Assembly: GCA_947625895.1 (NCBI GenBank)
Contig: CANQPZ010000002.1
Span: 1 to 61,614, forward strand
Direction: 5' to 3'
From: an uncultured Clostridia bacterium
GTDB lineage: Bacteria; Bacillota; Clostridia; TANB77; CAG-508
DNA length: 61,614 nt
Position numbers and translations under genes: made by a program. The notes below the pieces were generated by a model. The model searched no databases. It was not told the origin of the DNA and saw nothing but the letters and a program-made list of their open reading frames with translations. Below, piece after piece: positions 4,989 to 45,219 of this stretch. Positions within the stretch are counted from its first letter, which is position 1, and each line of letters opens with the position of its first letter.

Positions 4989-5672
4989 ATGAAAAGAGGA
5001 AAAAGATATCAAGAATCTGCTAAATTAGTAGATAGCACAAAAGTGTATGATGCAAAAGAGGCTTTAGAAATTATTGAAAAAATGCCAAAGCCAAAATTTG
5101 ATGAAACAATTGAACTTCATGTAAAATTAGGTGTTGATTCAAAACATGCTGATCAACAAGTTAGAGGAACAGTTGTATTACCTAATGGAACTGGTAAAAC
5201 TCAAAAAGTTTTAGTATTTGCTAAAGGTGATAAAGCTAAAGAAGCTGAAGAAGCTGGAGCTGATTATGTTGGAGCAGAAGAATTAATACCAAAAATTGAA
5301 AAAGAAAATTGGTTTGATTATGACGTTATAGTTGCAACACCAGATATGATGGGTGTTATTGGTAGATTAGGAAAGGTCTTAGGACCTAAAGGATTAATGC
5401 CAAACCCAAAATCAGGAACAGTTACAATGGACGTTAAAAAAGCAATTTCAGAAATCAAATCTGGTAAAGTTGAATACAGATTAGATAAAACAAATATCAT
5501 ACATTTAGGATTTGGAAAAGTTTCTTTTGGAGCTGAAAAATTATTAGAAAACTATAAAACAATAATTGAAGCTATAGAAAAAGCTAAACCAGCAGCTGCA
5601 AAAGGACAATACATTAAAAGCGTATCAATTTCTACAACAATGGGACCTGGCTTATATGTAAATGAAAAATAG
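4989..5672 (+). CDS. rplA: 50S ribosomal protein L1
   Basis: [15 protein letters not shown]... is a typical L1 sequence. AAGGAGG lies just upstream of ATG 4989. The track start 4923 is an in-frame upstream extension. Confidence 0.92.
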
Positions 5673-5679
5673 AAAAATA

Positions 5680-5790
5680 TTAACCTAAGACAGTAGGCAA
5701 AAAAAGAAGTCCTACCGAGGTAAAAAAATGTGAAGTGTTATATAGATAAACTTCAATTTGCCTCGGTTGGCGAATTGAAGTTTTTTAATT
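5680..5790 (+). promoter_or_regulatory. ribosomal protein L10 (rplJ) leader with attenuator terminator
   Basis: A structured 150-nt gap lies between rplA and rplJ. CCTACCGAGG (5711-5720) can pair with CCTCGG (5761-5766). The alternative is the hairpin CTTCAATT(5751-5758)/AATTGAAG(5773-5780) followed by T6. This is the position and architecture of the Firmicute L10 leader. Confidence 0.55.
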
Positions 5791-5820
5791 TTTTAATTTT
5801 AATAAATAGGAGGTGTAATT

Positions 5821-8990: not shown

Positions 8991-10766
8991 ATGGACGAAC
9001 AAAATTTAAATAATGCTCCATCAGATGGAAAAAAAGATAATGAAAATCCATCTGTAGAAAATCCAGTAAATCAAAATACAACAACTGGACAAACAAACGT
9101 AAATAATAGTACAAAACCACCAAAAAAGAAAAAAGGAGTAGCTTTAAAAGTATTTATAGTACTATTAGTTTTAGTCATTGTTGCTGCTGTTGTCGTAGGA
9201 ATACTAATACTTACAGGAGTATTAGATATAAACTTAGACAAAAAGAGCAAAATGGAAGCTGGTGTATCACAATTAGTTGAATCTTATACTGCACCATTAG
9301 AAACTGTTTCTTCAACTGCACAAAATAATAATGCAGAAATGAAAGTTTTAAATAACTTATCATTAAATGCACCAGTAGAAGTTTCAACAGAAATTACAGG
9401 AACTGCAAACATTAATAGCATTTCTGGATTGACAACTAGTCAGAAAAAACAAGTAGATCAACTATGTGACTTATTAGATGATACTTCATTAGCATTAGAC
9501 TTTAAATATGATGGAAACAAACAAGCTTATGCAACAGTAAATGGAAAAGTTGAAGATGTAGAAGTGTCTGGAGAAGCTTTATATGATGGCAATCAATTTG
9601 GAATTAGATCAAAAGAATTAAACAACAAATGGTTAGTTGCAGATAAAGAACAACTTAAAGAAGGTCTTGAAGAAAGTCTAGAAGGACAAAATGTAGATGT
9701 TGATGAAATAAAAGAATATCTAGAAGATTATAAAGATCAATTATCAACAGTTAAAGATACTTTAAATATTGATACTAGTACACAAAATGAAATTCAAGAA
9801 AGATACAAAAATGTTTTAACTGAATATGTAAAAGATAAATCAAAAGAAATAGAATCAAAAAATACTAAAATAGAAGTTAATGGCAAAAATAAAAAATGCC
9901 AAAAATTATCTTTAGAATTAGATGATGATGATTTAAAAGATTTATTATCAAATTATATTGATACATTCGGTGATGATACACAATTACAAGGAATCATAAG
10001 AAGTATACTTGAAGAAATGGATACTATTGAGAAAACATCAAATAGTTATTACAGTTCAAACTATGCTAAACAATTTGACAATGCATTAAAGAGTTTAGAT
10101 TCATTAAAAGATACTTTAGATGACGCAGTTAAATTTGATGGAACAGTTACATTAATAGTATATGGAACATCTTCAGAAACATACAGAGCTGATATTATTA
10201 TTGATATTGATGATGAAAAAGTTGCTCTTGAAACAACATTTAACAAAAATGAAACAGTTACTAATATAAAATATGAAGATGAAGAAATGGCAGTACTTAA
10301 AGTATCATACGATACTAACTATGTTGATTACAGTTTAGATTTATCAGAAATTGCTAAAAAACAAAACATGGGAGATAGCTTTATAATAGATGTAAGATTA
10401 GAAGTAAATGGTGATGATTCATTAGTAAAAGTAAGCTATAAATTAGGTTCAGATTATGATTTTGCATTAACTGTAAAAGAAGATATCAATACAAATACAG
10501 ATAAAGAATATGATGGAAACTTATCAATATCTTTAGATGCTAAAGTTAAAGATATGATAGATGCAAACTTTGTAATAAATGCAAAAACAAGAATTTCTTT
10601 AGATACTGTTGTAATTCCTACAATTTCAGAAAATGAAAAAGTAGATGCAACTGATGAAGCTGCATACAATGCATATTTAACAGAAATGGAACCTAAGATT
10701 AGTGAATTAGGAACAAAATTACAAAATATCGAAATTATAAAAGAACTTATAGAAGAACAATTTTAA
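8991..10766 (+). CDS. membrane-anchored hypothetical protein (low-complexity N-terminus, one TM, large extracytoplasmic domain)
   Basis: 591-aa ORF. GGGAGGGAATT precedes the ATG. An N/Q/K-rich head is followed by VALKVFIVLLVLVIVAAVVVGILILTGV. No family recognised. Confidence 0.7.
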   Translation: MDEQNLNNAPSDGKKDNENPSVENPVNQNTTTGQTNVNNSTKPPKKKKGVALKVFIVLLVLVIVAAVVVGILILTGVLDINLDKKSKMEAGVSQLVESYTAPLETVSSTAQNNNAEMKVLNNLSLNAPVEVSTEITGTANINSISGLTTSQKKQVDQLCDLLDDTSLALDFKYDGNKQAYATVNGKVEDVEVSGEALYDGNQFGIRSKELNNKWLVADKEQLKEGLEESLEGQNVDVDEIKEYLEDYKDQLSTVKDTLNIDTSTQNEIQERYKNVLTEYVKDKSKEIESKNTKIEVNGKNKKCQKLSLELDDDDLKDLLSNYIDTFGDDTQLQGIIRSILEEMDTIEKTSNSYYSSNYAKQFDNALKSLDSLKDTLDDAVKFDGTVTLIVYGTSSETYRADIIIDIDDEKVALETTFNKNETVTNIKYEDEEMAVLKVSYDTNYVDYSLDLSEIAKKQNMGDSFIIDVRLEVNGDDSLVKVSYKLGSDYDFALTVKEDINTNTDKEYDGNLSISLDAKVKDMIDANFVINAKTRISLDTVVIPTISENEKVDATDEAAYNAYLTEMEPKISELGTKLQNIEIIKELIEEQF

Positions 10767-14986: not shown

Positions 14987-15283
14987 TTATTCAGAAAGAA
15001 TTAATTCATTGTACAAGTTTAGCAAAGTATATAATTCAGATTCTGAAGATAATTCATCAAAATTTAAATTATAAAATTCTATACAAACACCTTGATCTTT
15101 TTCGGAAAGATATTTTGTAGCATTATTTTTTAAATCTCTTACAGTTTTATATGCAAATTGAGGATTTTTAAGCTTAATCTTTTCAGTAAGAATATTTATT
15201 ATTTCGGAGCGAAGCATTTCAGCACAATAAGAATAATTTTGACTTTTAAAATTTAACTCAAAAATTTTTTTATTAAATGTCAT
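14987..15283 (-). CDS. hypothetical 98-aa protein, translationally coupled to the upstream 681-aa ORF
   Basis: ATG at 15283 is preceded by AGGAGG (15295-15300, minus strand). The track GTG at 15295 overlaps that SD. The start overlaps the upstream stop by 11 nt. Confidence 0.6.
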   Translation of the reverse strand: MTFNKKIFELNFKSQNYSYCAEMLRSEIINILTEKIKLKNPQFAYKTVRDLKNNATKYLSEKDQGVCIEFYNLNFDELSSESELYTLLNLYNELILSE

Positions 15284-17318
15284 GCTCAGAGTCACCTCCT
15301 ATAGGTGTTGGTTCATATTTATCATAACTATCGTTAGATTTTGTATATGCGACACCTGTTTCTAGATCTAAATATTTTACAACAAAATTACCTTTTCTTT
15401 TCTTAGATTTACTTGTAGTAGTATTATCATCATTTTCACACAAATGTTGAGGTGGAGCCTTAGGTGATAAGAAACCTAAGTGTGAAATCAAATTTGGATT
15501 ATCATATAATTCAGGATTTCTAGAAGCTTTCTTTATAATAGATTTATGCTTATCTGATAAAGGTGAAACTATATGAACAGGATATAATTTTCCTGTGTCA
15601 GGGTTTTTAAAATCTTCAGCACCAGCATAAATTGGAACTATAGCATTTCCATTTAAAGATTTTAAAAAGTCTATCAAAACTGATTTCTTTATATGGAATC
15701 TTACTGGAGAAGTAAGACCAGCATCAACACCGATTCCTATAATATTAGGTAATTCAACAGGAGAACCATCATAAGGTTTGTCTAATATAATACCAGCATT
15801 TGCAAAGTTATTTGTAGAATTTTCAATACTAGCAATTATAGAATTAATATTATAATCCTTCATTGAATAAGATGAATATATTGGATTAAATAATCTAATA
15901 TACCAATCTGCATCTTCTCGTATATCATTTTTTGAGTTAGGACACATCTTATCAAAAGTACTTTTATATTCAGCAGCATCCCTATTGTTCATTAAGTCTA
16001 TAAATGGCTCATATGAAAATCTAACAATTTTTTCTTCAACATTTGCATCATTAACATCAACAGCTTCTTTATTTAAAGCGTCTGCATCTGCATCTCTCTG
16101 ACATTTTTCTAAGAAAATGCATGCAGGTCTATAGAAAGTATTCATCTTAATAAGCATATCATTTACTTCTTCTTTAGATATATCAATTCTTTCACCTGCA
16201 ATTATTTTGTGTATGATATCGAAATGATCAACAGCAAACATGCCTTCAGAATATGTATCTAAAGATTTTATATATCTATTAGACCAAAAAGAATTAAGTG
16301 CAAGTAAACTTTCAATTGGCATACTTTTTGGAGAAGAAAGAGCATATTCTGAGTGTAATGTTTTTAATTTATCAACACTAACAACATCTTCCAAAGATTT
16401 ATTTATTCTCCAATTTTCTTGACCTTTTAGACTTGATAAAAACTGTAAATTAGCATTAGGACCTTCGCATAAAGGTAATGCATATTCAGGAAAACCTAAG
16501 GAAATCAATTGAGAAACTTCTGAAACTAAGAATCCCTTTAATTCACCTAAATCATCAAGATTTTGAACTGTTTTAGCAGTTGACCTTGCTAAGTCTTTTC
16601 TTAATAAATTTTCTAATATTTCAGAATCTGTAGAAAGATTTGCTTGAGATCCATAAATAAAGATTTTTGCATCATTTAAAAAAGCTTTTCTCTCTGAAGG
16701 TAGTTTATACCATGTAGAAAACTCTTTCATTTTTGCAATTTTCTTTGAAGGATCTAGAGATTTATCTGCTAATACATCAGCCACTTGAGGTAAAGAAAAT
16801 CTATCACCAAAGTAGAAAGATGAAAGTGGCTTAATATTCTCTTGTAATAGCTCATCAAAATTAACATAGTTTTCCGGTGTACCTTTCATATATCCTTCGA
16901 AAAAGTAATTAAAAAGTTCTCTTTTTGTATTATATAAATATAAAGATAAATATTCATCAAAAGAAGTACAATCAGAATAATGAAGTTTAGAAATATCATT
17001 ATATGAAGTTTTTAATTTTTCAGATAATTCTTTATATTTATCAGGGTGTGCCCTTAAATATTGATTTGCTATATATTCTATATATTCAGAAAAAACAAAT
17101 GAAATCTCAAAAACAGTTGTAGAGTAATCATCTATTTCCTGAAATAATTTTTCTTTCATTTCTTGTTCAGTTATTTCTGGATTTTCTTTTTTCATTTTAG
17201 ATAAACGATGAATAATTGAACGTAAATATTTATGAACATAATAAGCCTCGGTAGGCTTAGATGTAACCCTATCTTTAGCATGGTTTAAATTAATTTCAAA
17301 AAAAGTTGGTTTATACAT
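15273..17318 (-). CDS. large hypothetical protein (681 aa), no family recognised
   Basis: Uninterrupted 2-kb ORF. AGGAG lies 9 nt upstream of ATG 17318 (the track TTG 17324 is possible). Divergent from mfd. Confidence 0.75.
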   Translation of the reverse strand: MYKPTFFEINLNHAKDRVTSKPTEAYYVHKYLRSIIHRLSKMKKENPEITEQEMKEKLFQEIDDYSTTVFEISFVFSEYIEYIANQYLRAHPDKYKELSEKLKTSYNDISKLHYSDCTSFDEYLSLYLYNTKRELFNYFFEGYMKGTPENYVNFDELLQENIKPLSSFYFGDRFSLPQVADVLADKSLDPSKKIAKMKEFSTWYKLPSERKAFLNDAKIFIYGSQANLSTDSEILENLLRKDLARSTAKTVQNLDDLGELKGFLVSEVSQLISLGFPEYALPLCEGPNANLQFLSSLKGQENWRINKSLEDVVSVDKLKTLHSEYALSSPKSMPIESLLALNSFWSNRYIKSLDTYSEGMFAVDHFDIIHKIIAGERIDISKEEVNDMLIKMNTFYRPACIFLEKCQRDADADALNKEAVDVNDANVEEKIVRFSYEPFIDLMNNRDAAEYKSTFDKMCPNSKNDIREDADWYIRLFNPIYSSYSMKDYNINSIIASIENSTNNFANAGIILDKPYDGSPVELPNIIGIGVDAGLTSPVRFHIKKSVLIDFLKSLNGNAIVPIYAGAEDFKNPDTGKLYPVHIVSPLSDKHKSIIKKASRNPELYDNPNLISHLGFLSPKAPPQHLCENDDNTTTSKSKKRKGNFVVKYLDLETGVAYTKSNDSYDKYEPTPIGGDSEHDI

Positions 17319-17492
17319 ATACAAACACTCCTATTTAAACTTAACATAATAATTATAACATATTTTGCTAATTATTACAACAAAAGACATATAATGATTG
17401 AAACTAAATGAAAACTATGATATAATACTACTTCAGGAGAAAAAATGAATACTGTTTTTACATAAACATATAACTATATAAAGGAGAAAAAG

Positions 17493-23393: not shown

Positions 23394-24614
23394 ATGAAAA
23401 TAAAGAAAATTTTAATAATTATGCTAGGAATAATTATGCTTATAAGTTCAAACTTTGTATATGCCACATTCAAGATAGATAAAGCAAGTCTATATAGTAA
23501 AGGAGAATGCAGTCCATTATTTAAAATTTCTACAAATGGAAATCCAATGACAATATCAAAAATATTTTATAGCTATAATGGAAAAGAATATCCAGCATAC
23601 TGCGTAAACAAAGAATTAGATGGAGTAGAAAAATTAGGAAGTTATGATGTCACTATTGAAGAAGCGGTTGAAAATCAAATGATTAGGAGAGCTATAATTA
23701 ATGGATATCCATATAAAACTCCTCAAGAATTAAATGTAGCAAATGAAGATGAAGCTTTTGCTGCAACAAAACAAGCGATATATTGCATATTATATGGATT
23801 TGATGCAAATAATTATGCAAGATATGTTCCAATAGGAGAAGCAGGAGAAAGAACACTAGCAGCAATAAAACGAATTGTTAATATTGCCAAAACAGACACA
23901 AGTACTAAGCCAAGCAGCCAAATAACTATAAAAGAAACTGGCAATTGGAAAGTAGATGATAAAGATAAAAATTATGTAAGTAAAGTTTTCCAAGTAGGAG
24001 CACAAGCAAATATTAAAGATTATACGATTACAATTAATAATGCTTCAAATAATGAACTAAAAGTTACTGATTTAAATGGAAATGAAATCACAAAAACTAG
24101 TGAAAAACAATTTAAAATAATGATACCACTAAGATCTTTAGAAAACGATGGAACATTTGAAATAAATATAAATGGAGAGGTGGCTACAATGCCAATTTTA
24201 TATGGAAAATCAGGAAATAGCACATCACAAAATTATGTATTAGCAGGTGATATATATGAAATTGGAAATGGAAATGCAAAAGTAAATTATTATAAAAATA
24301 GAAGTAAAGTAAAGATAATAAAAAAAGATAATGTAACAGGAAGAGAACTTGAAGGGATAAAATTTAGAATACTAAATGAAAATAATGAAGAAATATATAC
24401 TGATTTGATGACAGATAAAAATGGAGAAATAATCATAGAAGGTATATTACCTGGTAAATATTATTTAGAAGAAGTAGAAACAAAAGAAGGATATAAAAAA
24501 TTAAAAGAAAGAATAGAATTTGAGGTTAAGTTTAATGAAGAATTAGAGCTAGAAGTAATGAATGAAAAAATACCAGAAAAAACCATAAAAAAATTACCTG
24601 TTACAGGTATGTAA
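23394..24614 (+). CDS. surface adhesin with a thioester (TQXA-like) domain and a Cna-B/SpaA-type domain; sorting signal truncated right after LPVTG
   Basis: Signal peptide. YPAYCVNKE ... INGYPYKT ... ATKQAIY resembles the Cys-Gln thioester domain. KIIKKDNVTGRELEGIKFRI...GKYYLEEVETKEGY is a Cna-B-type fold. The ORF ends KKLPVTGM-stop, with no hydrophobic or charged tail. Confidence 0.7.
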   Translation: MKIKKILIIMLGIIMLISSNFVYATFKIDKASLYSKGECSPLFKISTNGNPMTISKIFYSYNGKEYPAYCVNKELDGVEKLGSYDVTIEEAVENQMIRRAIINGYPYKTPQELNVANEDEAFAATKQAIYCILYGFDANNYARYVPIGEAGERTLAAIKRIVNIAKTDTSTKPSSQITIKETGNWKVDDKDKNYVSKVFQVGAQANIKDYTITINNASNNELKVTDLNGNEITKTSEKQFKIMIPLRSLENDGTFEININGEVATMPILYGKSGNSTSQNYVLAGDIYEIGNGNAKVNYYKNRSKVKIIKKDNVTGRELEGIKFRILNENNEEIYTDLMTDKNGEIIIEGILPGKYYLEEVETKEGYKKLKERIEFEVKFNEELELEVMNEKIPEKTIKKLPVTGM

Positions 24615-30602: not shown

Positions 30603-30732
30603 ATGCGAAATCTCCTATAAATTTTTCACATTATATAATAAAAACATTAGAAAAGCAAACATTTTATGATATTTGATTGAACAAAAGAATTATGATAAAA
30701 TTAACTTTGAAATTGTATTAAAAGAGGAAAAG

Positions 30733-31542
30733 ATGAATATATATCCAAAAATAAATAAAGCAATAGAATATATAGAAAATAATCTTGAAGAAAAAATAGA
30801 ATATAAAAAAATAGCTCAGTTAATGCAAATGAATGAATATACTGTACAGACAGCGTTTTTAGTATTATGTGACATATCGATAGCAGATTATATCAGAAAA
30901 CGTAGACTTTCTAATGCAGGATACGATTTATATTCTACTAATGAAAGTGTCATAGATATAGCAATAAAATATCAATATACAAGTGCAACATCATTTTCTA
31001 GAGCATTTGAAAAATTTCATGGAATAAAACCGAGTGAAGTGAAAAAATCACCTAAAGGATTAAAAGTTTACTCAAGAATAAATTTTGATGAAAAAGAAGA
31101 GGAAAGAACAAGCATTGAATATAGTGTTATTGAAAAAGAAGAAATAATATTATATGGAAAAGGAATAAAGACTGATAACTCAAAAATAGGAAAAGATGCA
31201 CCTAGATTTTGGAGAGAAGAACAGGAAAAATATTTGGATAAGTATGGAGAATTTAACTATGGAATGACTTCATACACAGATGGATCAAGAAAATATTCGA
31301 ACAAATATTGGGTTCTTTATGATAAAGAAATTAATGATAAAGAATTTCAGAAGATTATTATACCAAAAAGTAAATGGATAGTTTTTAGAATAGACTCACA
31401 AGAGACTGAAGATATTCAAAGAATTACTGACAGATTTTATAAAGAATTTATTATTAGTGCAAAATATAAGTTCAGAGAATTACCAGAACTAGAATATTAT
31501 CACGATGATGTTACAGACCTTATGGTTCCAATAGAAGATTAA
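30733..31542 (+). CDS. AraC-family transcriptional regulator with a GyrI-like effector domain
   Basis: HTH_AraC region (IADYIRKRRLSNAG ... YQYTSATSFSRAFEKFHGIKPSE) followed by a GyrI-like C-terminal half. ATG 30733 is preferred over the track TTG 30673. Confidence 0.75.
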   Translation: MNIYPKINKAIEYIENNLEEKIEYKKIAQLMQMNEYTVQTAFLVLCDISIADYIRKRRLSNAGYDLYSTNESVIDIAIKYQYTSATSFSRAFEKFHGIKPSEVKKSPKGLKVYSRINFDEKEEERTSIEYSVIEKEEIILYGKGIKTDNSKIGKDAPRFWREEQEKYLDKYGEFNYGMTSYTDGSRKYSNKYWVLYDKEINDKEFQKIIIPKSKWIVFRIDSQETEDIQRITDRFYKEFIISAKYKFRELPELEYYHDDVTDLMVPIED

Positions 31543-31546
31543 GGAA

Positions 31547-31584
31547 ACTGACTTTTTTCTATAAGAAAAAGTCAGTCTTTTTTT
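31547..31584 (+). terminator. rho-independent terminator after the AraC-family gene
   Basis: ACTGACTTTTT / AAAAAGTCAGT is an 11-bp stem followed by a T-run. Confidence 0.7.
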
Positions 31585-31622
31585 GTCTAAATGTCGTATT
31601 ATTATGCTAGGAGACGAGTAAT

Positions 31623-33509
31623 ATGAAAAAGTATATTTCAGAAATTTTTTTTACAACAGATAATGCCGATGAAAATGAATGGCAAAAACTCATACTAGAA
31701 ATATCAAAACTAAATGGATTATTTAGAAGTTGGAAAATTTATATACAAGTTGAAAGAAATATTATTAGATATTATCTAGTCACAAGAAAGAAAATTCCAA
31801 CTATATTAAGTTGTTCAGGAAACTTTTTAATAAAAACAATATCACATTTCGATAAGATAAAAACTAATTTATCATTTTTATATTTAGTTACCAATAAAGA
31901 AAAAAATATTGTAGATATTTATGACAAAAATGAATCAAAATATAACTTAAACTTAAAACAAGTAGAAGTAAGAATAAGATCATTTAAAAAAGATAATTAT
32001 TTTTCACATACAAAATTGTATTTTGAAAATAAGAATGGTAGAAAGTGCAAAGCATGGGCATTGTTTTTTATACCCAATATGGGAATAAGTGTGGATTTTA
32101 GTAAACATACTAGATTTCTATACAGAAAAGAAGGAAGTAGATATCTAAAATTAGAAAAGTCAATGAGTCTATTTTCAAAAAAAGAGGGAGAAGAAAACTT
32201 ATTAGAAATAAATACATTCCCATATACAGATGAAAAATACTATTTAAATATTTTAAATTATGATTTTGATAAACATTCTTTAATTGTTGGAGCAAGCGGT
32301 ACAGGCAAATCTAAATTAATATCAAGCTTTATAAAAAATATTTATGATAATGAGATTCTTAGACAAACAAATAAAGTGATAGTAATAGATCCTCATGGCT
32401 CTTTAGAAAATGATATTGGTGGATTAGAAAATACAGAAGTAATTAATATGAAGGAAAAGGAAAATACTACTGATTTGTGGATTAATTCCGATGAAAATGT
32501 AAGTAGTAGTACAGAAATTATATTAACAATATTAAAAAGTATTTTTGGGGAACAATATAATTCAAAATTAGAAAGAGTTTTAAGGCATAGCGTATATCTT
32601 TTACTTAAGAAGAAACAATTAAATTTTGAAACATTGAGAAAATTATTAACATACACAGAATATAGAACAAAACTAATAAGAGAATCTGACGATATTGAAG
32701 ATCATATAAAAGAATTCTTTTTAACAGATTTTAATGAAATAAAGACTAAATCATATCAAGAAGCAATATCTCCAATTATTTCATTAATTGAAGAAATGCA
32801 AATGTTACCAGCTTTCCAAAATGAAGGAAAAAGATCAGTAGAAGAACTAATAAAGAACAACTTCTTAACATTATTTTCACTGGATCAAGCAGAATTAGGA
32901 GAAAAAGTTACTAAAACAATTTCTGGATTAATATTGGGAATAATTTTTAATTTAGTGCAAAATAAAAAATTTTATGAGCACATAATTCTTATTGTTGATG
33001 AAGTTGCTGTTGTAGAAAATCCAATATTAAGAAATTTATTATCAGAAGCAAGAAAATATAATTTGTCAATTATACTTGCCCAACAATATTTTGGACAAGT
33101 GAGCAAGGAACTAAGAGAAGCAATTTTTTCTAATGTAATGAATTATTATACATTTAGAGTTTCAAGAGAAGATGCAGTTATACTAAGTAATCACTTACAA
33201 ATGGAAATGGCAGTAAAAAATTCATATCATAATAGAGTTAAATTAATTACAGAATTGCCTAATAGAGATTGCATAGTAAGAATAAGTAAAGAAGGAAGAG
33301 TAATACCATCTTTTAGAGGAAGAACGTTAGATTTTACTCCAATACCAATTAGAAAAAATCAAATTATAAGTTCAAAAGAAGATAAAAATACAAAAGAAAA
33401 AGATATTGAATTAATAAAAGATGAAGAATTCAGCTTGGGAAAAACAATAGATCTAAGAGCACTTATGAATTCTCAATCAACAAGTAGGAGAAAAATAAAA
33501 TATGAATGA
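31623..33509 (+). CDS. soluble VirD4/TraD/HerA-like P-loop ATPase with an uncharacterised 215-aa N-terminal domain
   Basis: Walker A GASGTGKSK (nt 32289-32315), IDPHGS, Walker B ILIVDEVA, and ARKYNLSIILAQQYFGQ (TraG/TraD C-terminal-like). No N-terminal TM helices. Confidence 0.7.
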   Translation: MKKYISEIFFTTDNADENEWQKLILEISKLNGLFRSWKIYIQVERNIIRYYLVTRKKIPTILSCSGNFLIKTISHFDKIKTNLSFLYLVTNKEKNIVDIYDKNESKYNLNLKQVEVRIRSFKKDNYFSHTKLYFENKNGRKCKAWALFFIPNMGISVDFSKHTRFLYRKEGSRYLKLEKSMSLFSKKEGEENLLEINTFPYTDEKYYLNILNYDFDKHSLIVGASGTGKSKLISSFIKNIYDNEILRQTNKVIVIDPHGSLENDIGGLENTEVINMKEKENTTDLWINSDENVSSSTEIILTILKSIFGEQYNSKLERVLRHSVYLLLKKKQLNFETLRKLLTYTEYRTKLIRESDDIEDHIKEFFLTDFNEIKTKSYQEAISPIISLIEEMQMLPAFQNEGKRSVEELIKNNFLTLFSLDQAELGEKVTKTISGLILGIIFNLVQNKKFYEHIILIVDEVAVVENPILRNLLSEARKYNLSIILAQQYFGQVSKELREAIFSNVMNYYTFRVSREDAVILSNHLQMEMAVKNSYHNRVKLITELPNRDCIVRISKEGRVIPSFRGRTLDFTPIPIRKNQIISSKEDKNTKEKDIELIKDEEFSLGKTIDLRALMNSQSTSRRKIKYE

Positions 33510-34203
33510 TATAGAATCTTTAAAAATTGCATCAGAAGTATTTTTTAATATATTTCAAAAAGAAAATAATTACAGTCTAGATGAAATAAGAGAAAAATTT
33601 GCATTTGATGTGAAATTACCAAGGAAAGTAAAAGATAGTTTAACAGGTGAAGAAACCTGGACAGAAATGGAAAATGCGGAGTTATATATAAAACAAAGTA
33701 ACATGGATAAGTATGATGAAACAAGAGGTTGGATGATAAATAAAAGAAAAATCTCAACATTAGAAGATATAATAAAAATTTGGAAAAAAATAAATTATAT
33801 AACAACCGAAAGAATATATGATTCAGAAAATATACATAAAAGTGATACCATTTATAATTGTTCAAATATATATCATTCTACAGATTGTAGAGGAAGCAAA
33901 AATATATTATTTTCAGATGGATTAGCAGAAAGTGAAAATATGATAGCATCACAAAGAACAGCAAATTCAAATAATTGCATTAGAGTTGATGACTCGGGAA
34001 ATTGTTCAAACAGCTATAATGTAATATGTTCAGCAAAAATAACAAATTCATTTTTTATACAAGATTGTAATAGCCTATATGAATGCATGTTTTGTTCACA
34101 TATTTCTAACAGAAGATATTGTATTGCTAATATGCAGTTTGAACCAGATGAATATTTAAAAATAAAAAGAATAATAACAGATTGGATCACTAAAAAAGAA
34201 TAA
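33502..34203 (+). CDS. hypothetical Cys-rich repeat protein coupled to the ATPase
   Basis: The start overlaps the ATPase stop by 8 nt. Residues ~105-215 form a quasi-periodic S/N/C-rich repeat (..NIHKSDTIYNCSNIYHSTDCRGSKNILFSDG..NNCIRVDDSGNCSNSYNVICSAKITNSFFIQDCNSLYECMFCSH..). Confidence 0.65.
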   Translation: MNDIESLKIASEVFFNIFQKENNYSLDEIREKFAFDVKLPRKVKDSLTGEETWTEMENAELYIKQSNMDKYDETRGWMINKRKISTLEDIIKIWKKINYITTERIYDSENIHKSDTIYNCSNIYHSTDCRGSKNILFSDGLAESENMIASQRTANSNNCIRVDDSGNCSNSYNVICSAKITNSFFIQDCNSLYECMFCSHISNRRYCIANMQFEPDEYLKIKRIITDWITKKE

Positions 34204-35301: not shown

Positions 35302-35724
35302 ATGGTACCTGAACAGAAAAACAGACTCGACATCCTGCAAATGAACCAAGCAATTTACAAAACACTGCAAACTAAAGAGAGGAAGGTAGATGGAGAAGAG
35401 ATATGTGACAAACATGCTAAAAGGATATGGCATGAAATAGAAAAAGAATTACTCTATTTAGCACATGATGGAAAACTTGTAAACTATCATGTTGCAAGTA
35501 TTGATCTTTATTCTGCAAGCAGAGTTATTGTCACATACCACAAGAAGAGTTCTGAAGAGTTAAAGTCTTACGATGTACCAAAGGAGGTAGACGCTAACAG
35601 GATTTTCATCCGTATGTGTCTATTAGCTGAAAAAGCTGGATTTAGTATGGCACCAAGTCATCAGCTAAGCTCCAGAGGAAGAATAACTTGGTGGATAAGA
35701 TTTGCCGATACTCAAGGCAAATAA
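35302..35724 (+). CDS. hypothetical 140-aa protein in a compositionally atypical single-gene cassette
   Basis: GAGGAG SD. About 38-40% GC with non-host codon choice (CTG, CTC, GAC, CAC). Has its own promoter and terminator. No family recognised. Confidence 0.7.
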   Translation: MVPEQKNRLDILQMNQAIYKTLQTKERKVDGEEICDKHAKRIWHEIEKELLYLAHDGKLVNYHVASIDLYSASRVIVTYHKKSSEELKSYDVPKEVDANRIFIRMCLLAEKAGFSMAPSHQLSSRGRITWWIRFADTQGK

Positions 35725-36914: not shown

Positions 36915-37034
36915 AAAATGTATAAGATGTAAAAAATTAAAAGCAAGTAATAATTGAAATTTACTTGTTTTTCTGCTATATTTTATTATAAATAACATGG
37001 GCAAAAAATAAATTATTTTTTCTTGGGAGATTAT

Positions 37035-37757
37035 ATGAACAATCAAATAGATGAACTTAAAAAATTAATAGATGAAAGTGATAATATAGTTTTCTTTGGA
37101 GGAGCTGGTGTATCAACAGAAAGTGGAATACCAGACTTTAGAAGTAAAGATGGACTATATAATCAACATTATAAATATCCTCCTGAAGAAATTTTAAGTC
37201 ACTCATTTTTTAAAAATAATACTGAAGAATTTTTTAGATTTTATAAAGAAAAATTAAACAGTCTAAAATATGAGCCTAACATTACTCATATCAAGCTTGC
37301 AGAACTTGAAAAAATAGGAAAACTAAAAGCAGTTATAACTCAAAATATAGATGGTTTACATCAAAAGGCTGGTTCAGAAAAAGTATATGAACTACATGGA
37401 AGTGTTCTAAGAAACTATTGTATGAAATGTAACAAATTCTATGATGCAGAGTATGTTTTTGAAAACAAAGAACATATTCCAAGATGTAGTTGTGGAGGAA
37501 TTATAAAACCAGATGTTGTACTTTATGAAGAAGGATTAGATGAAAATATTTTAGAAAACTCAATTAATGCGATACAAAATGCAGATATGTTAATTGTAGC
37601 AGGAACATCTTTAACAGTATATCCTGCAAGTGGGCTAATAAATTATTTTACAGGTAGAAATTTAGTTTTAATAAATAAAGATAGTACACCTTATGATAGT
37701 AGAGCAGATCTAGTAATAAATGAAAGTTTAGGAAAAGTATTCTCACAGATTATGTAA
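37035..37757 (+). CDS. cobB: NAD-dependent protein deacylase (Sir2/CobB family)
   Basis: GAGVSTESGIPDFRS, QNIDGLH, Zn-ribbon CxxC...CxC, IKPDVVLYEE. ATG 37035 lies after GGGAG. Confidence 0.85.
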   Translation: MNNQIDELKKLIDESDNIVFFGGAGVSTESGIPDFRSKDGLYNQHYKYPPEEILSHSFFKNNTEEFFRFYKEKLNSLKYEPNITHIKLAELEKIGKLKAVITQNIDGLHQKAGSEKVYELHGSVLRNYCMKCNKFYDAEYVFENKEHIPRCSCGGIIKPDVVLYEEGLDENILENSINAIQNADMLIVAGTSLTVYPASGLINYFTGRNLVLINKDSTPYDSRADLVINESLGKVFSQIM

Positions 37758-44244: not shown

Positions 44245-45219
44245 ATGTGCACAGCAATAACATATAAAACAAAAGACCATTATTTTGGAAGAAATTTAGA
44301 TTTAGAATATTCATACAAAGAAACAGTAACAATAACACCAAGAAATTATAAATTCAAATTTAGAAATGGAAAGGAAATAGATGAACATTATGCAATAATT
44401 GGAATGGCATATGTTGCAAACGATTATCCACTTTATTATGATGCCATTAATGAAAAAGGATTAGGAATGGCAGGATTAAATTTTCCAGATAATGCAGATT
44501 ATAAAGAAATAAATCCTGAAAAAGACAATGTTGCTCCATTTGAGTTTATACCATGGATATTAACACAATGTGAAAATATTGATGAAGCAAAAGAATTACT
44601 TAGCAGAATAAACATTGCTCAAATAAATTTTAGCGACAGCCTTCCAGCATCGCCATTACATTGGATTATTGCAGATAAAGATAGTTCAATTACAGTAGAG
44701 AGTGTTAAAGATGGATTAAAAATTTATGATAATCCAGTTGGAGTTTTAACAAACAATCCAACTTTTGATATTCAAATGTTTAATTTAAATAATTATATTG
44801 GATTATCAATAGAACAACCTGAAAATAATTTCTCAAAGAAATTAGATTTAAACTTATATAGTCGTGGAATGGGAGGATTAGGACTTCCAGGAGATTTATC
44901 TTCTGCATCAAGATTTGTAAAAGCTACATTTACAAAGATGAATTCTTTATCAGGAGATTCAGAATCTGAAAGTATTAGTCAATTTTTCCATATACTTGGT
45001 TCTGTTGAACAACAAAGAGGCTGTGTTCATATGGGAGAGGATAAATATGAAATAACAATATATAGTTCATGCTGCAATGTTGATAAAGGAATATATTATT
45101 ATACAACTTATGAAAACAGCCAAATTACAGGAATTGATATGAATAAAGAAGATTTAGATGGAGAAAAACTTGTTAGTTATGATCTAATAAAAGGTCAACA
45201 AATTCGTATGCAAAATTAG
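44245..45219 (+). CDS. choloylglycine (bile salt) hydrolase / penicillin V acylase family Ntn hydrolase
   Basis: MCTAITY.....FGRNLD has the catalytic Cys2. Length is about 324 aa. Confidence 0.85.
   Translation: MCTAITYKTKDHYFGRNLDLEYSYKETVTITPRNYKFKFRNGKEIDEHYAIIGMAYVANDYPLYYDAINEKGLGMAGLNFPDNADYKEINPEKDNVAPFEFIPWILTQCENIDEAKELLSRINIAQINFSDSLPASPLHWIIADKDSSITVESVKDGLKIYDNPVGVLTNNPTFDIQMFNLNNYIGLSIEQPENNFSKKLDLNLYSRGMGGLGLPGDLSSASRFVKATFTKMNSLSGDSESESISQFFHILGSVEQQRGCVHMGEDKYEITIYSSCCNVDKGIYYYTTYENSQITGIDMNKEDLDGEKLVSYDLIKGQQIRMQN

What the first reader, a model, noticed from the sequence alone, without database searches (positions are those of the whole stretch)
31623..34203. Soluble VirD4/HerA-like ATPase coupled to a Cys-rich repeat protein, with no conjugation genes nearby
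The 628-aa protein combines an unrecognised 215-aa N-terminal domain with a TraD/VirD4/HerA-type P-loop core (GASGTGKSK, IDPHGS, ILIVDEVA, ARKYNLSIILAQQYFGQ). It lacks the N-terminal TM helices of coupling proteins. It is also not next to any relaxase, VirB4 or other T4SS gene. Its stop overlaps by 8 nt the start of a 233-aa protein. The C-terminal half of that protein is a quasi-periodic Ser/Asn/Cys-rich repeat with at least 9 Cys in about 100 aa, possibly a beta-solenoid or metal-binding array. HerA/FtsK-like ATPases paired with a small effector are a recurring theme in anti-phage systems. This two-gene module has its own terminator upstream and could be an undescribed example. It could equally be a conserved housekeeping pair of unknown function.
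Basis: partly seen in the sequence, partly recalled or inferred. Interest (0 to 1): 0.65.

Follow-up and report, generated by a model that had tools for sequence, protein, structure and literature searches.

The report
Conserved orphan ring-ATPase plus repeat-protein pair
Two overlapping genes encode a soluble HerA/VirD4-like ATPase and a protein of a previously unnamed repeat family; the pair is always found together in small-genome gut bacteria, CPR bacteria and (expanded) DPANN archaea, is not part of a conjugation system or a mobile element, and its function is still unknown.

Summary
ORFs 31623-33509 (628 aa) and 33502-34203 (233 aa) overlap by 8 nt. The first is an intact, soluble FtsK-HerA-superfamily ATPase with an unrecognised ~200-aa N-domain. 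The second has nine Cys and ten 12-residue Asn-ladder repeats, and matches no Pfam, NCBIfam, PADLOC or PDB entry.

The pair is strictly linked: the ATPase lies directly upstream in 155 of 155 informative loci, and 148 of 155 junctions overlap or are within 20 nt. The two proteins co-diverge (r = 0.87). The partner evolves as slowly as neighbouring housekeeping genes. Flanks are ordinary chromosome. No T4SS, relaxase or integrase family recurs, and there is no partner homologue in plasmid, phage or viral collections.

Carriers are reduced-genome gut Bacillota, Saccharibacteria and other CPR-type lineages. Micrarchaeota hold tandem arrays of 2-16 partner domains, usually beside an orthologous ATPase.

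In the gut clade an AraC-GyrI regulator and a sequence-conserved inverted repeat precede the pair.

Best reading: a regulated, chromosomal ATPase-partner complex of unknown cellular function, probably acting on DNA. It is not a T4SS remnant, and context does not favour a defence system, though that is not excluded. It appears undescribed.

The parts
30673..31542 (+). AraC-family HTH plus GyrI-like/Cass2 effector-binding regulator (289-aa ORF from a TTG start; homologues align from about residue 21, so the true start may be the ATG at about 30733)
   Evidence: Pfam HTH_18 3.1e-15, Cass2 7.3e-9, GyrI-like 6.7e-8. Directly upstream on the same strand in 50 of 69 informative species loci, and nearby in 7 more. 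It is the only recurrent neighbour family in the censuses.
31547..31576 (+). Sequence-conserved inverted repeat ACTGAC-N18-GTCAGT followed by a T-run: terminator-like hairpin of the regulator gene and candidate operator for the pair's promoter
   Evidence: Flagged as terminator-like on both strands. Unique in the window, with 0.00 expected by chance. Found at a single site per locus in 38 other loci. A relaxed form is present in 65 of 68 loci with the AraC gene and 7 of 54 without. It starts a median 9 nt after the AraC CDS and ends a median 51 nt before the ATPase ATG.
31577..31622 (+). Short leader with -10-like TATTAT (about 31597-31605) and AGGAG ribosome-binding site (31609-31613)
   Evidence: Read directly from the sequence. 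TATAAT-like hexamers lie at a similar distance after the inverted repeat in many related loci. Promoter function is inferred, not shown.
31623..33509 (+). Soluble FtsK-HerA-superfamily P-loop ATPase, 628 aa. N-domain aa 1-205 (31623-32237, no known family). Core aa ~206-520 with Walker A at 32289-32315, Walker B at 32985-33008 and a helical insertion at about aa 293-400. Basic, low-confidence C-terminal tail
   Evidence: Pfam TrwB_AAD_bind and DUF87. AlphaFold model pLDDT 74.6. Foldseek matches to HerA 4d2i (5.7e-13), TrwB 1e9r (2e-11), VirB4 and DndH-C. No TM segment, and catalytic motifs conserved from Bacillota to Micrarchaeota.
33502..34203 (+). Partner protein, 233 aa, of a family with no name. 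N-terminal alpha/beta domain (aa 1-92), ten 12-residue Asn-ladder repeats (aa 93-212 = 33778-34137) and a C-terminal helix (aa 215-230). Universal residues are F197, I208, N210, Y218 and K222
   Evidence: No Pfam, NCBIfam, PADLOC or PHROG match. 997 close homologues and 1,068 clusters at 50% identity. AlphaFold is confident for aa 1-140 only. No PDB fold or sequence match. Periodicity. Universal residues.

Best explanation
The two genes encode the subunits of one conserved, chromosomally inherited ATP-driven complex.

Shown:
- The ATPase is a soluble, catalytically intact member of the FtsK-HerA superfamily, with a family-specific ~200-aa N-domain.
- It is always encoded immediately upstream of, and usually overlapping, a protein of a new family: an alpha/beta head, ten 12-residue Asn-ladder repeats and a C-terminal helix.
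- The two proteins co-diverge.
- The pair sits in ordinary chromosomal contexts in reduced-genome gut Bacillota and in Saccharibacteria and other CPR-type lineages. Micrarchaeota carry tandem arrays of single- and double-domain partner paralogues, usually next to an orthologous ATPase.
- In the gut Bacillota clade an AraC-GyrI-type regulator and a sequence-conserved inverted repeat lie just upstream.

Inferred:
- By analogy with HerA and TrwB, the ATPase forms a hexameric ring that uses ATP to translocate or remodel a polymer. DNA is the most likely substrate, given what its structural relatives act on and its basic charge (pI 9.1).
- The partner self-associates. The natural tandem fusions in archaea argue for domain-domain contact. 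It would dock on the ring as an adaptor, gate or processing subunit, in the way NurA, Sir2 or DUF4297 sit on HerA.
- In the gut clade, expression is switched on when the GyrI-like domain of the regulator binds a small molecule, acting through the inverted repeat that abuts the promoter.

The cellular process served is not established. My best guess is a stress- or ligand-induced DNA transaction such as repair or processing.
For: Linkage:
- ATPase directly upstream of the partner in 80 of 80 species-representative loci and 75 of 75 informative metagenomic loci spanning 24-54% GC.
- 148 of 155 junctions overlap or are within 20 nt; the commonest are -8 nt (48 loci) and -4 nt (27 loci). Identities of the two proteins correlate at r = 0.87, and the partner is the more conserved in 126 of 130 loci.

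ATPase:
- Fold matches to HerA, TrwB, VirB4 and DndH-C at E 1e-9 to 1e-13.
- Walker A, DPH, Walker B, SE[AT]RK[FY]N and QY..Q motifs conserved from Bacillota to Micrarchaeota, and no TM segment.
- Archaeal neighbour ATPases align over aa 36-554 or 208-571 at E 1e-38 to 1e-43.

Constraint and context:
- Conserved synteny with PFL, CdaA and HAD genes in the nearest genomes. Partner identity is 91/88/67% against PFL 95/91% and CdaA 94/86/61%.
- Censuses of 296 flanking genes find only AraC/GyrI recurrent; the rest is scattered housekeeping. In Saccharibacteria locus L077 the pair lies between ribosomal protein genes.
- No partner homologue in 72,556 plasmids, 50,697 phage records or IMG/VR contigs. 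The ATPase gives only remote core-level hits there.

Archaeal arrays:
- Adjacent ATPase in L081, L083, L164, L165 and L168. A nearby transcription factor of the HTH_10, AsnC/MarR or TrmB type in L081, L083, L164, L167 and L168.

Regulator and inverted repeat.

The 12:6 Sir2-HerA architecture is taken from the PDB entry title returned.
Against: - No experiment, expression data or complex model is available. Only DNA runs from rabbit gut hold the locus.
- The partner has no recognisable catalytic, DNA-binding or known interaction domain. Its repeat region is modelled with low confidence (pLDDT 45-55).
- Hexamer formation, the substrate and partner docking are all inferred by analogy with relatives at only 11-17% identity.
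- The partner tree suggests some inter-phylum transfer: Saccharibacteria-type loci nest within or next to the gut Bacillota clade. Variable paralogue arrays (2-16 domains) occur in Micrarchaeota. Both features are also compatible with a conflict system.
- Some archaeal partner genes have no ATPase within 10 kb (L166, L167, L169).
- Whether the pair is core or patchy within its clades could not be measured.
Confidence: 0.5

Rival explanations
1. It is an anti-phage or anti-plasmid defence system of the HerA-plus-effector type, like Sir2-HerA or DUF4297-HerA. The partner would be a new effector or sensor that the ATPase ring assembles or activates upon infection.
For: - The ATPase matches PADLOC mad8 (3.1e-16) and, partially, HerA defence models.
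- Its structural neighbours include Sir2-HerA and HerA-DUF4297 defence complexes.
- A two-gene ATPase-plus-small-partner layout is typical of such systems.
- There are hints of inter-phylum transfer.
- Partner paralogue number varies in Micrarchaeota, and one array carries an AbiE insertion.
Against: - The partner has no PADLOC hit even at E <= 1.
- No restriction, integrase, transposase or other defence family recurs among 296 flanking genes.
- It is absent from phage, plasmid and viral collections.
- The partner is more conserved than the ATPase and about as conserved as PFL or CdaA, in stable synteny.
- The PADLOC HerA hits cover only about 100 residues around the Walker A motif.
- The nearby Sir2 gene (37023-37757) is 3.5 kb away and is not conserved with the pair.
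Confidence: 0.2
2. The ATPase acts on the partner itself. It would assemble, disassemble, unfold or export a polymer made of the repeat protein, for example a bactofilin-like cytoplasmic filament or a cargo delivered to another cell. No nucleic acid would be involved.
For: - Some FtsK-like ATPases handle proteins, for example T7SS EssC (established knowledge, not tested here).
- The partner is repeat-built and probably self-associating. Natural tandem double-domain fusions and multi-paralogue arrays suggest a heteromeric structure.
- The universally conserved residues cluster at the C-terminal cap and helix, as expected for a polymerisation or docking interface.
- Carriers are small-genome organisms, many of them thought to depend on other cells.
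Against: - Neither protein has a signal peptide or TM segment, and no membrane channel gene is linked.
- The closest structural relatives of the ATPase act on DNA.
- Only one of several archaeal arrays lies near pilus-type genes.
Confidence: 0.15
3. It is a degenerate remnant, or a detached coupling protein (T4CP), of a type IV secretion or conjugation system.
For: - Pfam TrwB_AAD_bind scores above its cut-off, with a weak TraG-D_C match.
- TrwB is among the best fold matches.
- Orphan VirD4-like genes located far from virB4 are reported to be common in Patescibacteria (PMC12102498).
Against: - There is no N-terminal TM anchor.
- No VirB4, relaxase or other T4SS family appears in the window ORFs scanned or among the families that recur in 296 flanking genes.
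- Catalytic motifs are invariant, so the gene is not decaying.
- The partner is absent from plasmids.
- The same pair occurs in Micrarchaeota.
- The two orphan T4CP-like genes of S. epibionticum ML1 are 921-1019 aa and lack a partner-like neighbour, so they are a different kind of gene.
Confidence: 0.05
4. The Cys-rich partner is a metal (Zn or Fe-S) binding, storage or delivery protein, and the ATPase loads or unloads it.
For: - The partner has 9-16 Cys per protein in the close clade, and archaeal double-domain proteins have up to 30.
- A C195-x2-C198-x-H200-x6-C207 cluster is invariant among the 60 close homologues.
- NCBI names one archaeal homologue a 'zinc ribbon domain-containing protein'.
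Against: - In the wider family Cys positions swap freely with Ser. C198, H200 and C207 are each lost in several members, and archaeal domains have Ala at position 207.
- Some members have only 4-6 Cys.
- The periodic Cys/Ser positions fit small residues in a solenoid core.
Confidence: 0.05

Closest known systems
HerA (archaeal HerA-NurA) and bacterial HerA-effector complexes (Sir2-HerA, DUF4297-HerA)
   Same: - The best fold match is S. solfataricus HerA (4d2i, E 5.7e-13), and Pfam DUF87 scores above its cut-off.
- It is soluble, with an N-terminal extra domain followed by a RecA-like core carrying a helical insertion.
- It is encoded together with a dedicated partner protein.
   Different: - Identity is only 11-15%.
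- The N-domain is not recognisably a HAS barrel by sequence.
- The partner is not NurA, Sir2 or DUF4297, and belongs to no named family.
- There is no Mre11-Rad50 linkage and no defence-island context.
Type IV coupling proteins (TrwB, VirD4, TraD)
   Same: - Pfam TrwB_AAD_bind scores above its cut-off.
- TrwB fold match at E 2e-11, TM about 0.55 on the target.
- There is a helical insertion between Walker A and Walker B, like the all-alpha domain.
   Different: - No TM anchor.
- No T4SS, relaxase or conjugative element nearby.
- A ~200-aa soluble N-domain takes the place of the anchor.
- It is always paired with the repeat protein, and it also occurs in archaea.
Orphan VirD4-like 'T4CP homologues' of Patescibacteria (PMC12102498)
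   Same: They are chromosomal VirD4/TrwB-like ATPases encoded far from virB4 in CPR genomes, and the authors suggest they have been exapted for other functions.
   Different: - That study describes no partner gene.
- Whether its 5,713 homologues include this family was not tested.
- The two examples checked here (S. epibionticum SEML1_0142 and SEML1_0293) are much larger and lack the partner.
Beta-solenoid repeat proteins (pentapeptide-repeat proteins such as Qnr/MfpA, hexapeptide LbH proteins, 12-residue insect antifreeze coils, bactofilins)
   Same: - It has short tandem repeats with an Asn ladder and small core residues.
- A C-terminal helix follows the repeats, as in Qnr/MfpA (comparison from memory, not tested here).
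- There are weak, non-significant Foldseek hints to LbH acetyltransferases.
   Different: - The period is 12, not 5, 6 or 18.
- No Pfam repeat family matches even at E 0.1.
- It is not consistently acidic (pI 4.8-9.6), so DNA mimicry has no support.
- It is cytoplasmic, so disulfide-braced coils are unlikely.

Membership tests
Type IV coupling protein (VirD4/TraD/TrwB) | FtsK-HerA-type nucleotide-binding domain with intact Walker A and Walker B motifs | tested here: met
   Pfam TrwB_AAD_bind scores 35.5 bits against a 20.5-bit cut-off. TrwB fold match at E 2e-11. Motifs invariant.
Type IV coupling protein (VirD4/TraD/TrwB) | N-terminal transmembrane anchor | tested here: not met
   Maximum 19-residue hydropathy is 1.28, against 2.64 for the CdaA TM control. 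The range across 50 homologues is 1.09-1.88.
Type IV coupling protein (VirD4/TraD/TrwB) | Genetic association with a T4SS, relaxase or conjugative element | tested here: not met
   No such family in the window ORFs scanned or among the recurrent families of 296 flanking genes. The partner is absent from plasmids, and the ATPase gives only 22-29% identity core hits there.
HerA helicase/translocase | RecA-like core of the HerA/DUF87 type | tested here: met
   Pfam DUF87 scores 34.2 bits against a 23.2-bit cut-off. HerA 4d2i is the top Foldseek hit at E 5.7e-13.
HerA helicase/translocase | N-terminal HAS-barrel domain | tested here: inconclusive
   The N-domain (aa 1-160) is modelled with confidence as beta-rich with two helices. 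HerA alignments span more than 500 columns, but with rmsd 13-16 Å. There is no sequence match to any family or PDB chain.
HerA helicase/translocase | Operon partner NurA (with Mre11-Rad50 in archaea) | tested here: not met
   The partner has no Pfam or PDB similarity to NurA. The neighbours are unrelated genes.
HerA-effector defence systems (Sir2-HerA, DUF4297-HerA) | Adjacent Sir2 or DUF4297 effector gene recognised by defence-system models | tested here: not met
   The partner has no PADLOC match at E <= 1. The Sir2 gene 3.5 kb downstream is not conserved with the pair.
HerA-effector defence systems (Sir2-HerA, DUF4297-HerA) | Protection against phage or plasmid | not testable with these tools
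   This needs a challenge experiment.
MADS (PADLOC mad8) | The ATPase matches the mad8 model and sits with the other mad genes, including a methyltransferase | tested here: inconclusive
   mad8 matches at E 3.1e-16 over the P-loop core only. Pfam shows the neighbours are AraC, GNAT, HAD and NMO genes, with no methyltransferase. The neighbours were not scanned with PADLOC.
Pentapeptide or hexapeptide beta-helix repeat families (for the partner) | Repeat period of 5 (or 6/18) and a match to the family profile | tested here: not met
   The dominant period is 12. No Pfam repeat family matches at E <= 0.1. There is no significant PDB fold match.

The most novel reading that the evidence does not exclude
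The pair is the bacterial, minimal form of an undescribed ATP-driven machine shared by CPR bacteria, DPANN archaea (where the partner has diversified into arrays of up to 16 domains) and genome-reduced gut Firmicutes. On this reading a ring translocase works with a new beta-solenoid-like oligomer in a cellular process that these small-genome, partner-dependent organisms retain or exchange among themselves, rather than in defence or conjugation.
Probability: 0.3. Interest if true: 0.8.

Novelty: new variant of a known kind. Interest (0 to 1): 0.62.

Why it matters
CPR bacteria, DPANN archaea and reduced gut Firmicutes keep very few genes, so a strictly linked, strongly constrained pair that recurs across them is likely to matter for their biology. 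Neither protein has a name or a described function.

The finding gives a concrete two-gene unit to test. For the gut clade it also gives a candidate regulator and operator. It defines a new protein family of about 1,000 clusters at 50% identity, with no Pfam model. It may also account for some of the 'orphan T4CP homologues' recently counted in Patescibacteria.

If the complex acts on DNA, it would add a new partner class to the HerA/FtsK translocases. If it turns out to be a defence system, it would be an unusually conserved one with a new effector fold.

Tried and rejected
- **Fixed 6- or 12-domain stoichiometry in archaeal arrays.** The first four ATPase-linked loci gave 12, 12, 6 and 6. 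Further loci gave 6, 16 and 4. I rejected this as a rule; copy number is variable.
- **DNA-mimic partner.** pI is 5.4 in the window protein and ranges from 4.8 to 9.6 across the family, so there is no charge support.
- **Obligate zinc site C195/C198/H200/C207.** It is invariant only in the close clade and is not conserved in the wider family or in archaea.
- **Fitness data from the S. epibionticum Tn-seq study.** Its two TraD/TrwB-like genes are different, larger proteins without the partner, so the study is not informative here.
- **Named family or solved structure for the partner or the ATPase N-domain.** Pfam, NCBIfam, PADLOC, PHROGs, PDB sequence profiles and Foldseek found nothing significant.
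- **Expression evidence.** Only rabbit-gut DNA runs hold the locus.
- **Literature.** Searches for a described HerA/VirD4-plus-Cys-rich pair in CPR or DPANN found none.
- **Automatic terminator scoring of the intergenic regions.** My own heuristic failed because the hairpin arms themselves contain T-runs. I replaced it with pattern searches.
- **MutY as a functional neighbour.** It appeared six times in the census. Judging by gene size and locus coordinates, those cases seem to come from one sub-clade; this was not formally tested. I treated it as local synteny.
Full report
**1. Checking the observation**

The window is low-GC DNA (27%) whose sequence is held only by rabbit-gut metagenome runs. 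ORFs 31623-33509 (628 aa) and 33502-34203 (233 aa) exist as described. They overlap by the 8-nt string ATGAATGA, and each has an AGGAG ribosome-binding site.

The larger protein matches Pfam TrwB_AAD_bind (E 6.8e-9) and DUF87/HerA (E 3.6e-8). Both scores are above the curated cut-offs, and both matches begin at about residue 203. The first ~200 residues match no Pfam family and no PDB sequence. There is no hydrophobic segment of TM strength: the maximum is 1.28, against 2.64 for the CdaA control.

The smaller protein has nine Cys between residues 120 and 207. It shows a clear 12-residue periodicity: autocorrelation is +0.56 at lag 12 against a background near -1, averaged over 60 homologues. 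This resolves into ten rungs (aa 93-212), with Asn at rung position 6 and conserved polar residues at positions 11-12. A hairpin followed by a T-run at 31547-31576 separates the pair from the upstream gene.

**2. What the proteins are**

An AlphaFold model of the ATPase (pLDDT 74.6) has three parts: a confident beta-rich N-domain (aa 1-160), a P-loop core with an all-helical insertion (about aa 293-400), and a poorly ordered basic tail. Foldseek against the PDB returns S. solfataricus HerA (E 5.7e-13), TrwB (2e-11), HerA-NurA, Sir2-HerA, HerA-DUF4297, DndH-C and VirB4, all at 11-17% identity. It is therefore a member of the FtsK-HerA superfamily that cannot be assigned to any one named family.

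The partner matches nothing in Pfam, NCBIfam, PADLOC or PHROGs, in PDB sequences, or in PDB folds. Its model is confident only for aa 1-140: an alpha/beta head and the first four rungs, with one strand every 12 residues. It is at pLDDT 45-55 for the remaining rungs.

**3. Linkage and distribution**

The partner has 997 close homologues of constant length (about 232 aa), all unnamed. A scan of one genome per GTDB species found relatives in 109 species. In all 80 loci fetched, the ATPase gene lies immediately upstream.

A profile search of 1.84 billion representative proteins found 1,068 clusters, including many ~525-aa proteins with two tandem copies of the domain. A metagenome scan with a diverse profile returned 246 relatives. 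In 75 of 75 loci with enough upstream DNA the ATPase is again directly upstream, over a GC range of 24-54%.

Across all 155 informative loci:
- 148 junctions overlap or are within 20 nt; the commonest are -8 nt and -4 nt.
- The identities of the two proteins to the window proteins correlate at r = 0.87.
- The partner is the more conserved of the two in 126 of 130 cases.

This is the signature of two subunits made in fixed proportion.

Carriers fall into four groups:
- MAGs labelled Clostridia, Bacilli, Tenericutes or Erysipelotrichaceae, with 23-34% GC. One closed chromosome is 1.49 Mb.
- Four loci labelled Saccharibacteria or Nanosyncoccus, with 40-50% GC.
- A Dojkabacteria protein.
- Many unnamed environmental contigs.

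The double-domain proteins come from Candidatus Micrarchaeota. There the family forms tandem, often overlapping arrays of single- and double-domain genes. An orthologous DUF87/TrwB ATPase is adjacent in 5 of 8 loci examined, with E 1e-38 to 1e-43 to the window ATPase, and one alignment extends into the N-domain. A transcription factor (HTH_10, AsnC/MarR or TrmB type) lies within or beside the array in five of them: L081, L083, L164, L167 and L168. The catalytic signatures of the ATPase are conserved from Bacillota to archaea.

**4. Context: neither conjugative nor mobile, and not a defence island**

The window around the pair encodes pyruvate formate-lyase and its activase, CdaA, a HAD hydrolase, two GNATs, a nitronate monooxygenase-type protein, Sir2, Mfd, a bile-salt hydrolase and transporters. 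No T4SS family appeared in the ORFs scanned.

I called genes in all loci and ran Pfam censuses of flanking genes. For the 80 species loci these were the nearest upstream and downstream genes. For the environmental loci they were the nearest and second-nearest on each side, capped at 150. Among the 146 flanking genes of the species loci, the only recurrent families were AraC HTH (44 members) and Cass2/GyrI-like (35 and 23 members). The rest were scattered housekeeping genes such as PBPs, MutY, nitroreductase, LiaF and ribosomal L7/L12. Among 150 flanking genes of the environmental loci the picture was the same: AraC/GyrI only in low-GC loci, and otherwise EF-Tu, SmpB, ParB, signal peptidase and the like. 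The census tool lists only the 25 most frequent of the 85 and 171 families detected, so rare families cannot be excluded. No relaxase, VirB4, integrase or restriction family recurs.

In Saccharibacteria locus L077 the pair lies between ribosomal protein genes. The partner has no tblastn match in 72,556 plasmids or 50,697 phage records, and no relative in IMG/VR with either profile. The ATPase gives only remote core-level matches in these collections.

Against the three nearest genomes the pair sits in conserved synteny and evolves like its neighbours. Partner identity is 91, 88 and 67%. PFL is 95 and 91%. CdaA is 94, 86 and 61%. The ATPase is 82, 79 and 61%.

An unsupported NJ tree places the environmental lineages basally. 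Saccharibacteria-type sequences fall at the base of, and in two cases inside, the low-GC gut clade. This hints at some inter-phylum transfer.

**5. A regulator and a conserved inverted repeat**

In the low-GC clade an AraC-HTH plus GyrI-like regulator lies directly upstream on the same strand in 50 of 69 informative loci, and nearby in 7 more.

When I aligned the intergenic regions by eye, nearly all of them contained the same inverted repeat, ACTGAC...GTCAGT, followed by a T-run. The exact pattern occurs once in the 61.6-kb window, where 0.00 matches are expected by chance. It occurs at a single site per locus in 38 other loci. A relaxed form is present in 65 of 68 loci with the regulator and in only 7 of 54 without. 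It starts a median of 9 nt after the regulator's coding sequence and ends a median of 51 nt before the ATPase start codon. Where another gene is inserted between the two, the repeat stays with the regulator gene.

It looks like a terminator, but terminator stems are not normally conserved in sequence between species whose proteins are only 50% identical. I therefore propose that it also serves as the regulator's operator, abutting the -35 region of the pair's promoter. That is an inference. No transcript data exist for this locus.

**6. How it most likely works**

Shown:
- an intact, soluble ring-type ATPase;
- an obligately co-encoded, co-diverging partner from a new family;
- chromosomal and strongly constrained;
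- a nearby transcription factor in the gut Bacillota clade and in several Micrarchaeota loci;
- natural tandem fusions and multi-paralogue arrays of the partner domain.

Inferred:
- The ATPase forms a hexamer like HerA and TrwB, and translocates or remodels a polymer. DNA is the most likely substrate, given its relatives and its basic charge (pI 9.1).
- The partner self-associates, following Rosetta-stone logic from the fusions. It would dock on the ring as an adaptor, gate or processing subunit, in the way NurA, Sir2 (12:6 in PDB 8uae, title) or DUF4297 sit on HerA.
- In the gut clade, a small-molecule ligand of the GyrI-like domain switches the module on.

The residues conserved across 84 bacterial proteins and 58 archaeal domains are F197, I208, N210, Y218 and K222, at the last rung and the C-terminal helix. 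These are candidates for a docking or oligomerisation interface. The Asp/Gln/Arg stripe along the rungs is specific to bacteria.

I put 0.5 on this overall picture. Within it, about 0.35 goes to the specific claim of a DNA transaction.

**7. Rivals**

- **HerA-effector defence system (0.2).** It fits the architecture, the PADLOC mad8 and partial HerA hits, the hints of transfer and the variable archaeal arrays. It is not supported by the flanks, by the conservation pattern, or by any effector signature.
- **A protein-directed machine acting on a partner polymer (0.15).** It fits the repeat and fusion evidence, but no channel or export signal is present.
- **T4SS remnant or detached coupling protein (0.05).** It fails three defining features.
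- **Metal-handling role (0.05).** It is weakened by the free Cys/Ser interchange and by the absence of any universal Cys.

**8. Comparison with what is known, and novelty**

A 2025 survey counted 5,713 VirD4-like 'T4CP homologues' in Patescibacteria genomes, only 148 of them near virB4. It suggested these genes have been exapted for other functions, but described no partner (PMC12102498). The two such genes in the genetically tractable S. epibionticum ML1 are larger and lack the partner, so the published Tn-seq data do not bear on this pair. I found no paper describing the partner family or the pair.

I rate the finding as a new variant of a known kind: a HerA/TrwB-type ATPase module with a new N-domain and a new partner family. 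There is a real possibility that it represents an unrecognised machine of small-genome prokaryotes.

**9. Dead ends**

- An apparent rule that archaeal arrays hold 6 or 12 domains failed on further loci, which gave 16 and 4.
- DNA mimicry has no charge support.
- The CxxCxH...C cluster is clade-specific.
- No RNA data are available.

Noticed in passing
window 31547-31576 (and the equivalent position in L001-L080 and six metagenomic loci): The inverted repeat ACTGAC-N-GTCAGT plus T-run is conserved at the sequence level across species whose proteins are only ~50% identical. It is unique in the window and tied to the 3' end of the AraC-GyrI regulator gene. It looks like a terminator, but is probably also a protein-binding site.
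   Followed up: yes
L081 3380-13503; L083 8001-17356; L164 10001-14622; L168 6906-20675: Micrarchaeota carry tandem, often overlapping arrays of 5-9 paralogous genes of the partner family, mixing single- and double-domain forms, for 6-16 domains per array. In L081, L083, L164 and L168 an HTH regulator and a DUF87/TrwB ATPase lie within or next to the array. In L165 an AbiEi/AbiEii pair is inserted between partner genes.
   Followed up: partly
L047, L062, L074, L077 (40-50% GC), compared with the low-GC loci: Loci labelled Saccharibacteria carry partners 52-54% identical to the window protein. In an unsupported NJ tree they fall at the base of, or inside, the gut Bacillota clade. This suggests inter-phylum transfer within gut communities.
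   Followed up: partly
window 37023-37757: A Sir2-family gene lies 3.5 kb downstream of the HerA-like ATPase, which recalls Sir2-HerA defence systems. It is separated from the pair by five genes and co-occurs with it only in the closest relative (L001). It is probably an ordinary deacetylase sitting next to the GNAT genes.
   Followed up: yes
window 15273-17324 (-) and 8991-10766 (+): Two large ORFs (683 aa and 591 aa) have no Pfam match at E <= 0.01, apart from one sub-threshold HBM hit (E 0.006) for the 591-aa ORF.
   Followed up: no
window 35302-35724: This 140-aa ORF with no family is only 68% identical to its L001 counterpart, whereas neighbouring genes are 86-95% identical. It is either a fast-evolving small protein or a miscalled ORF.
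   Followed up: no
window 23394-24614: A protein with a thioester domain (TED) and a SpaA-type prealbumin-fold domain, which is a probable covalent surface adhesin.
   Followed up: no
window 5666-5795 and 44245-45219: A ribosomal L10 leader (Rfam RF00557, 63.4 bits) and a choloylglycine/bile-salt hydrolase gene. The latter fits a gut origin. Bile salts are also a plausible ligand class for the neighbouring GyrI-type regulator.
   Followed up: no
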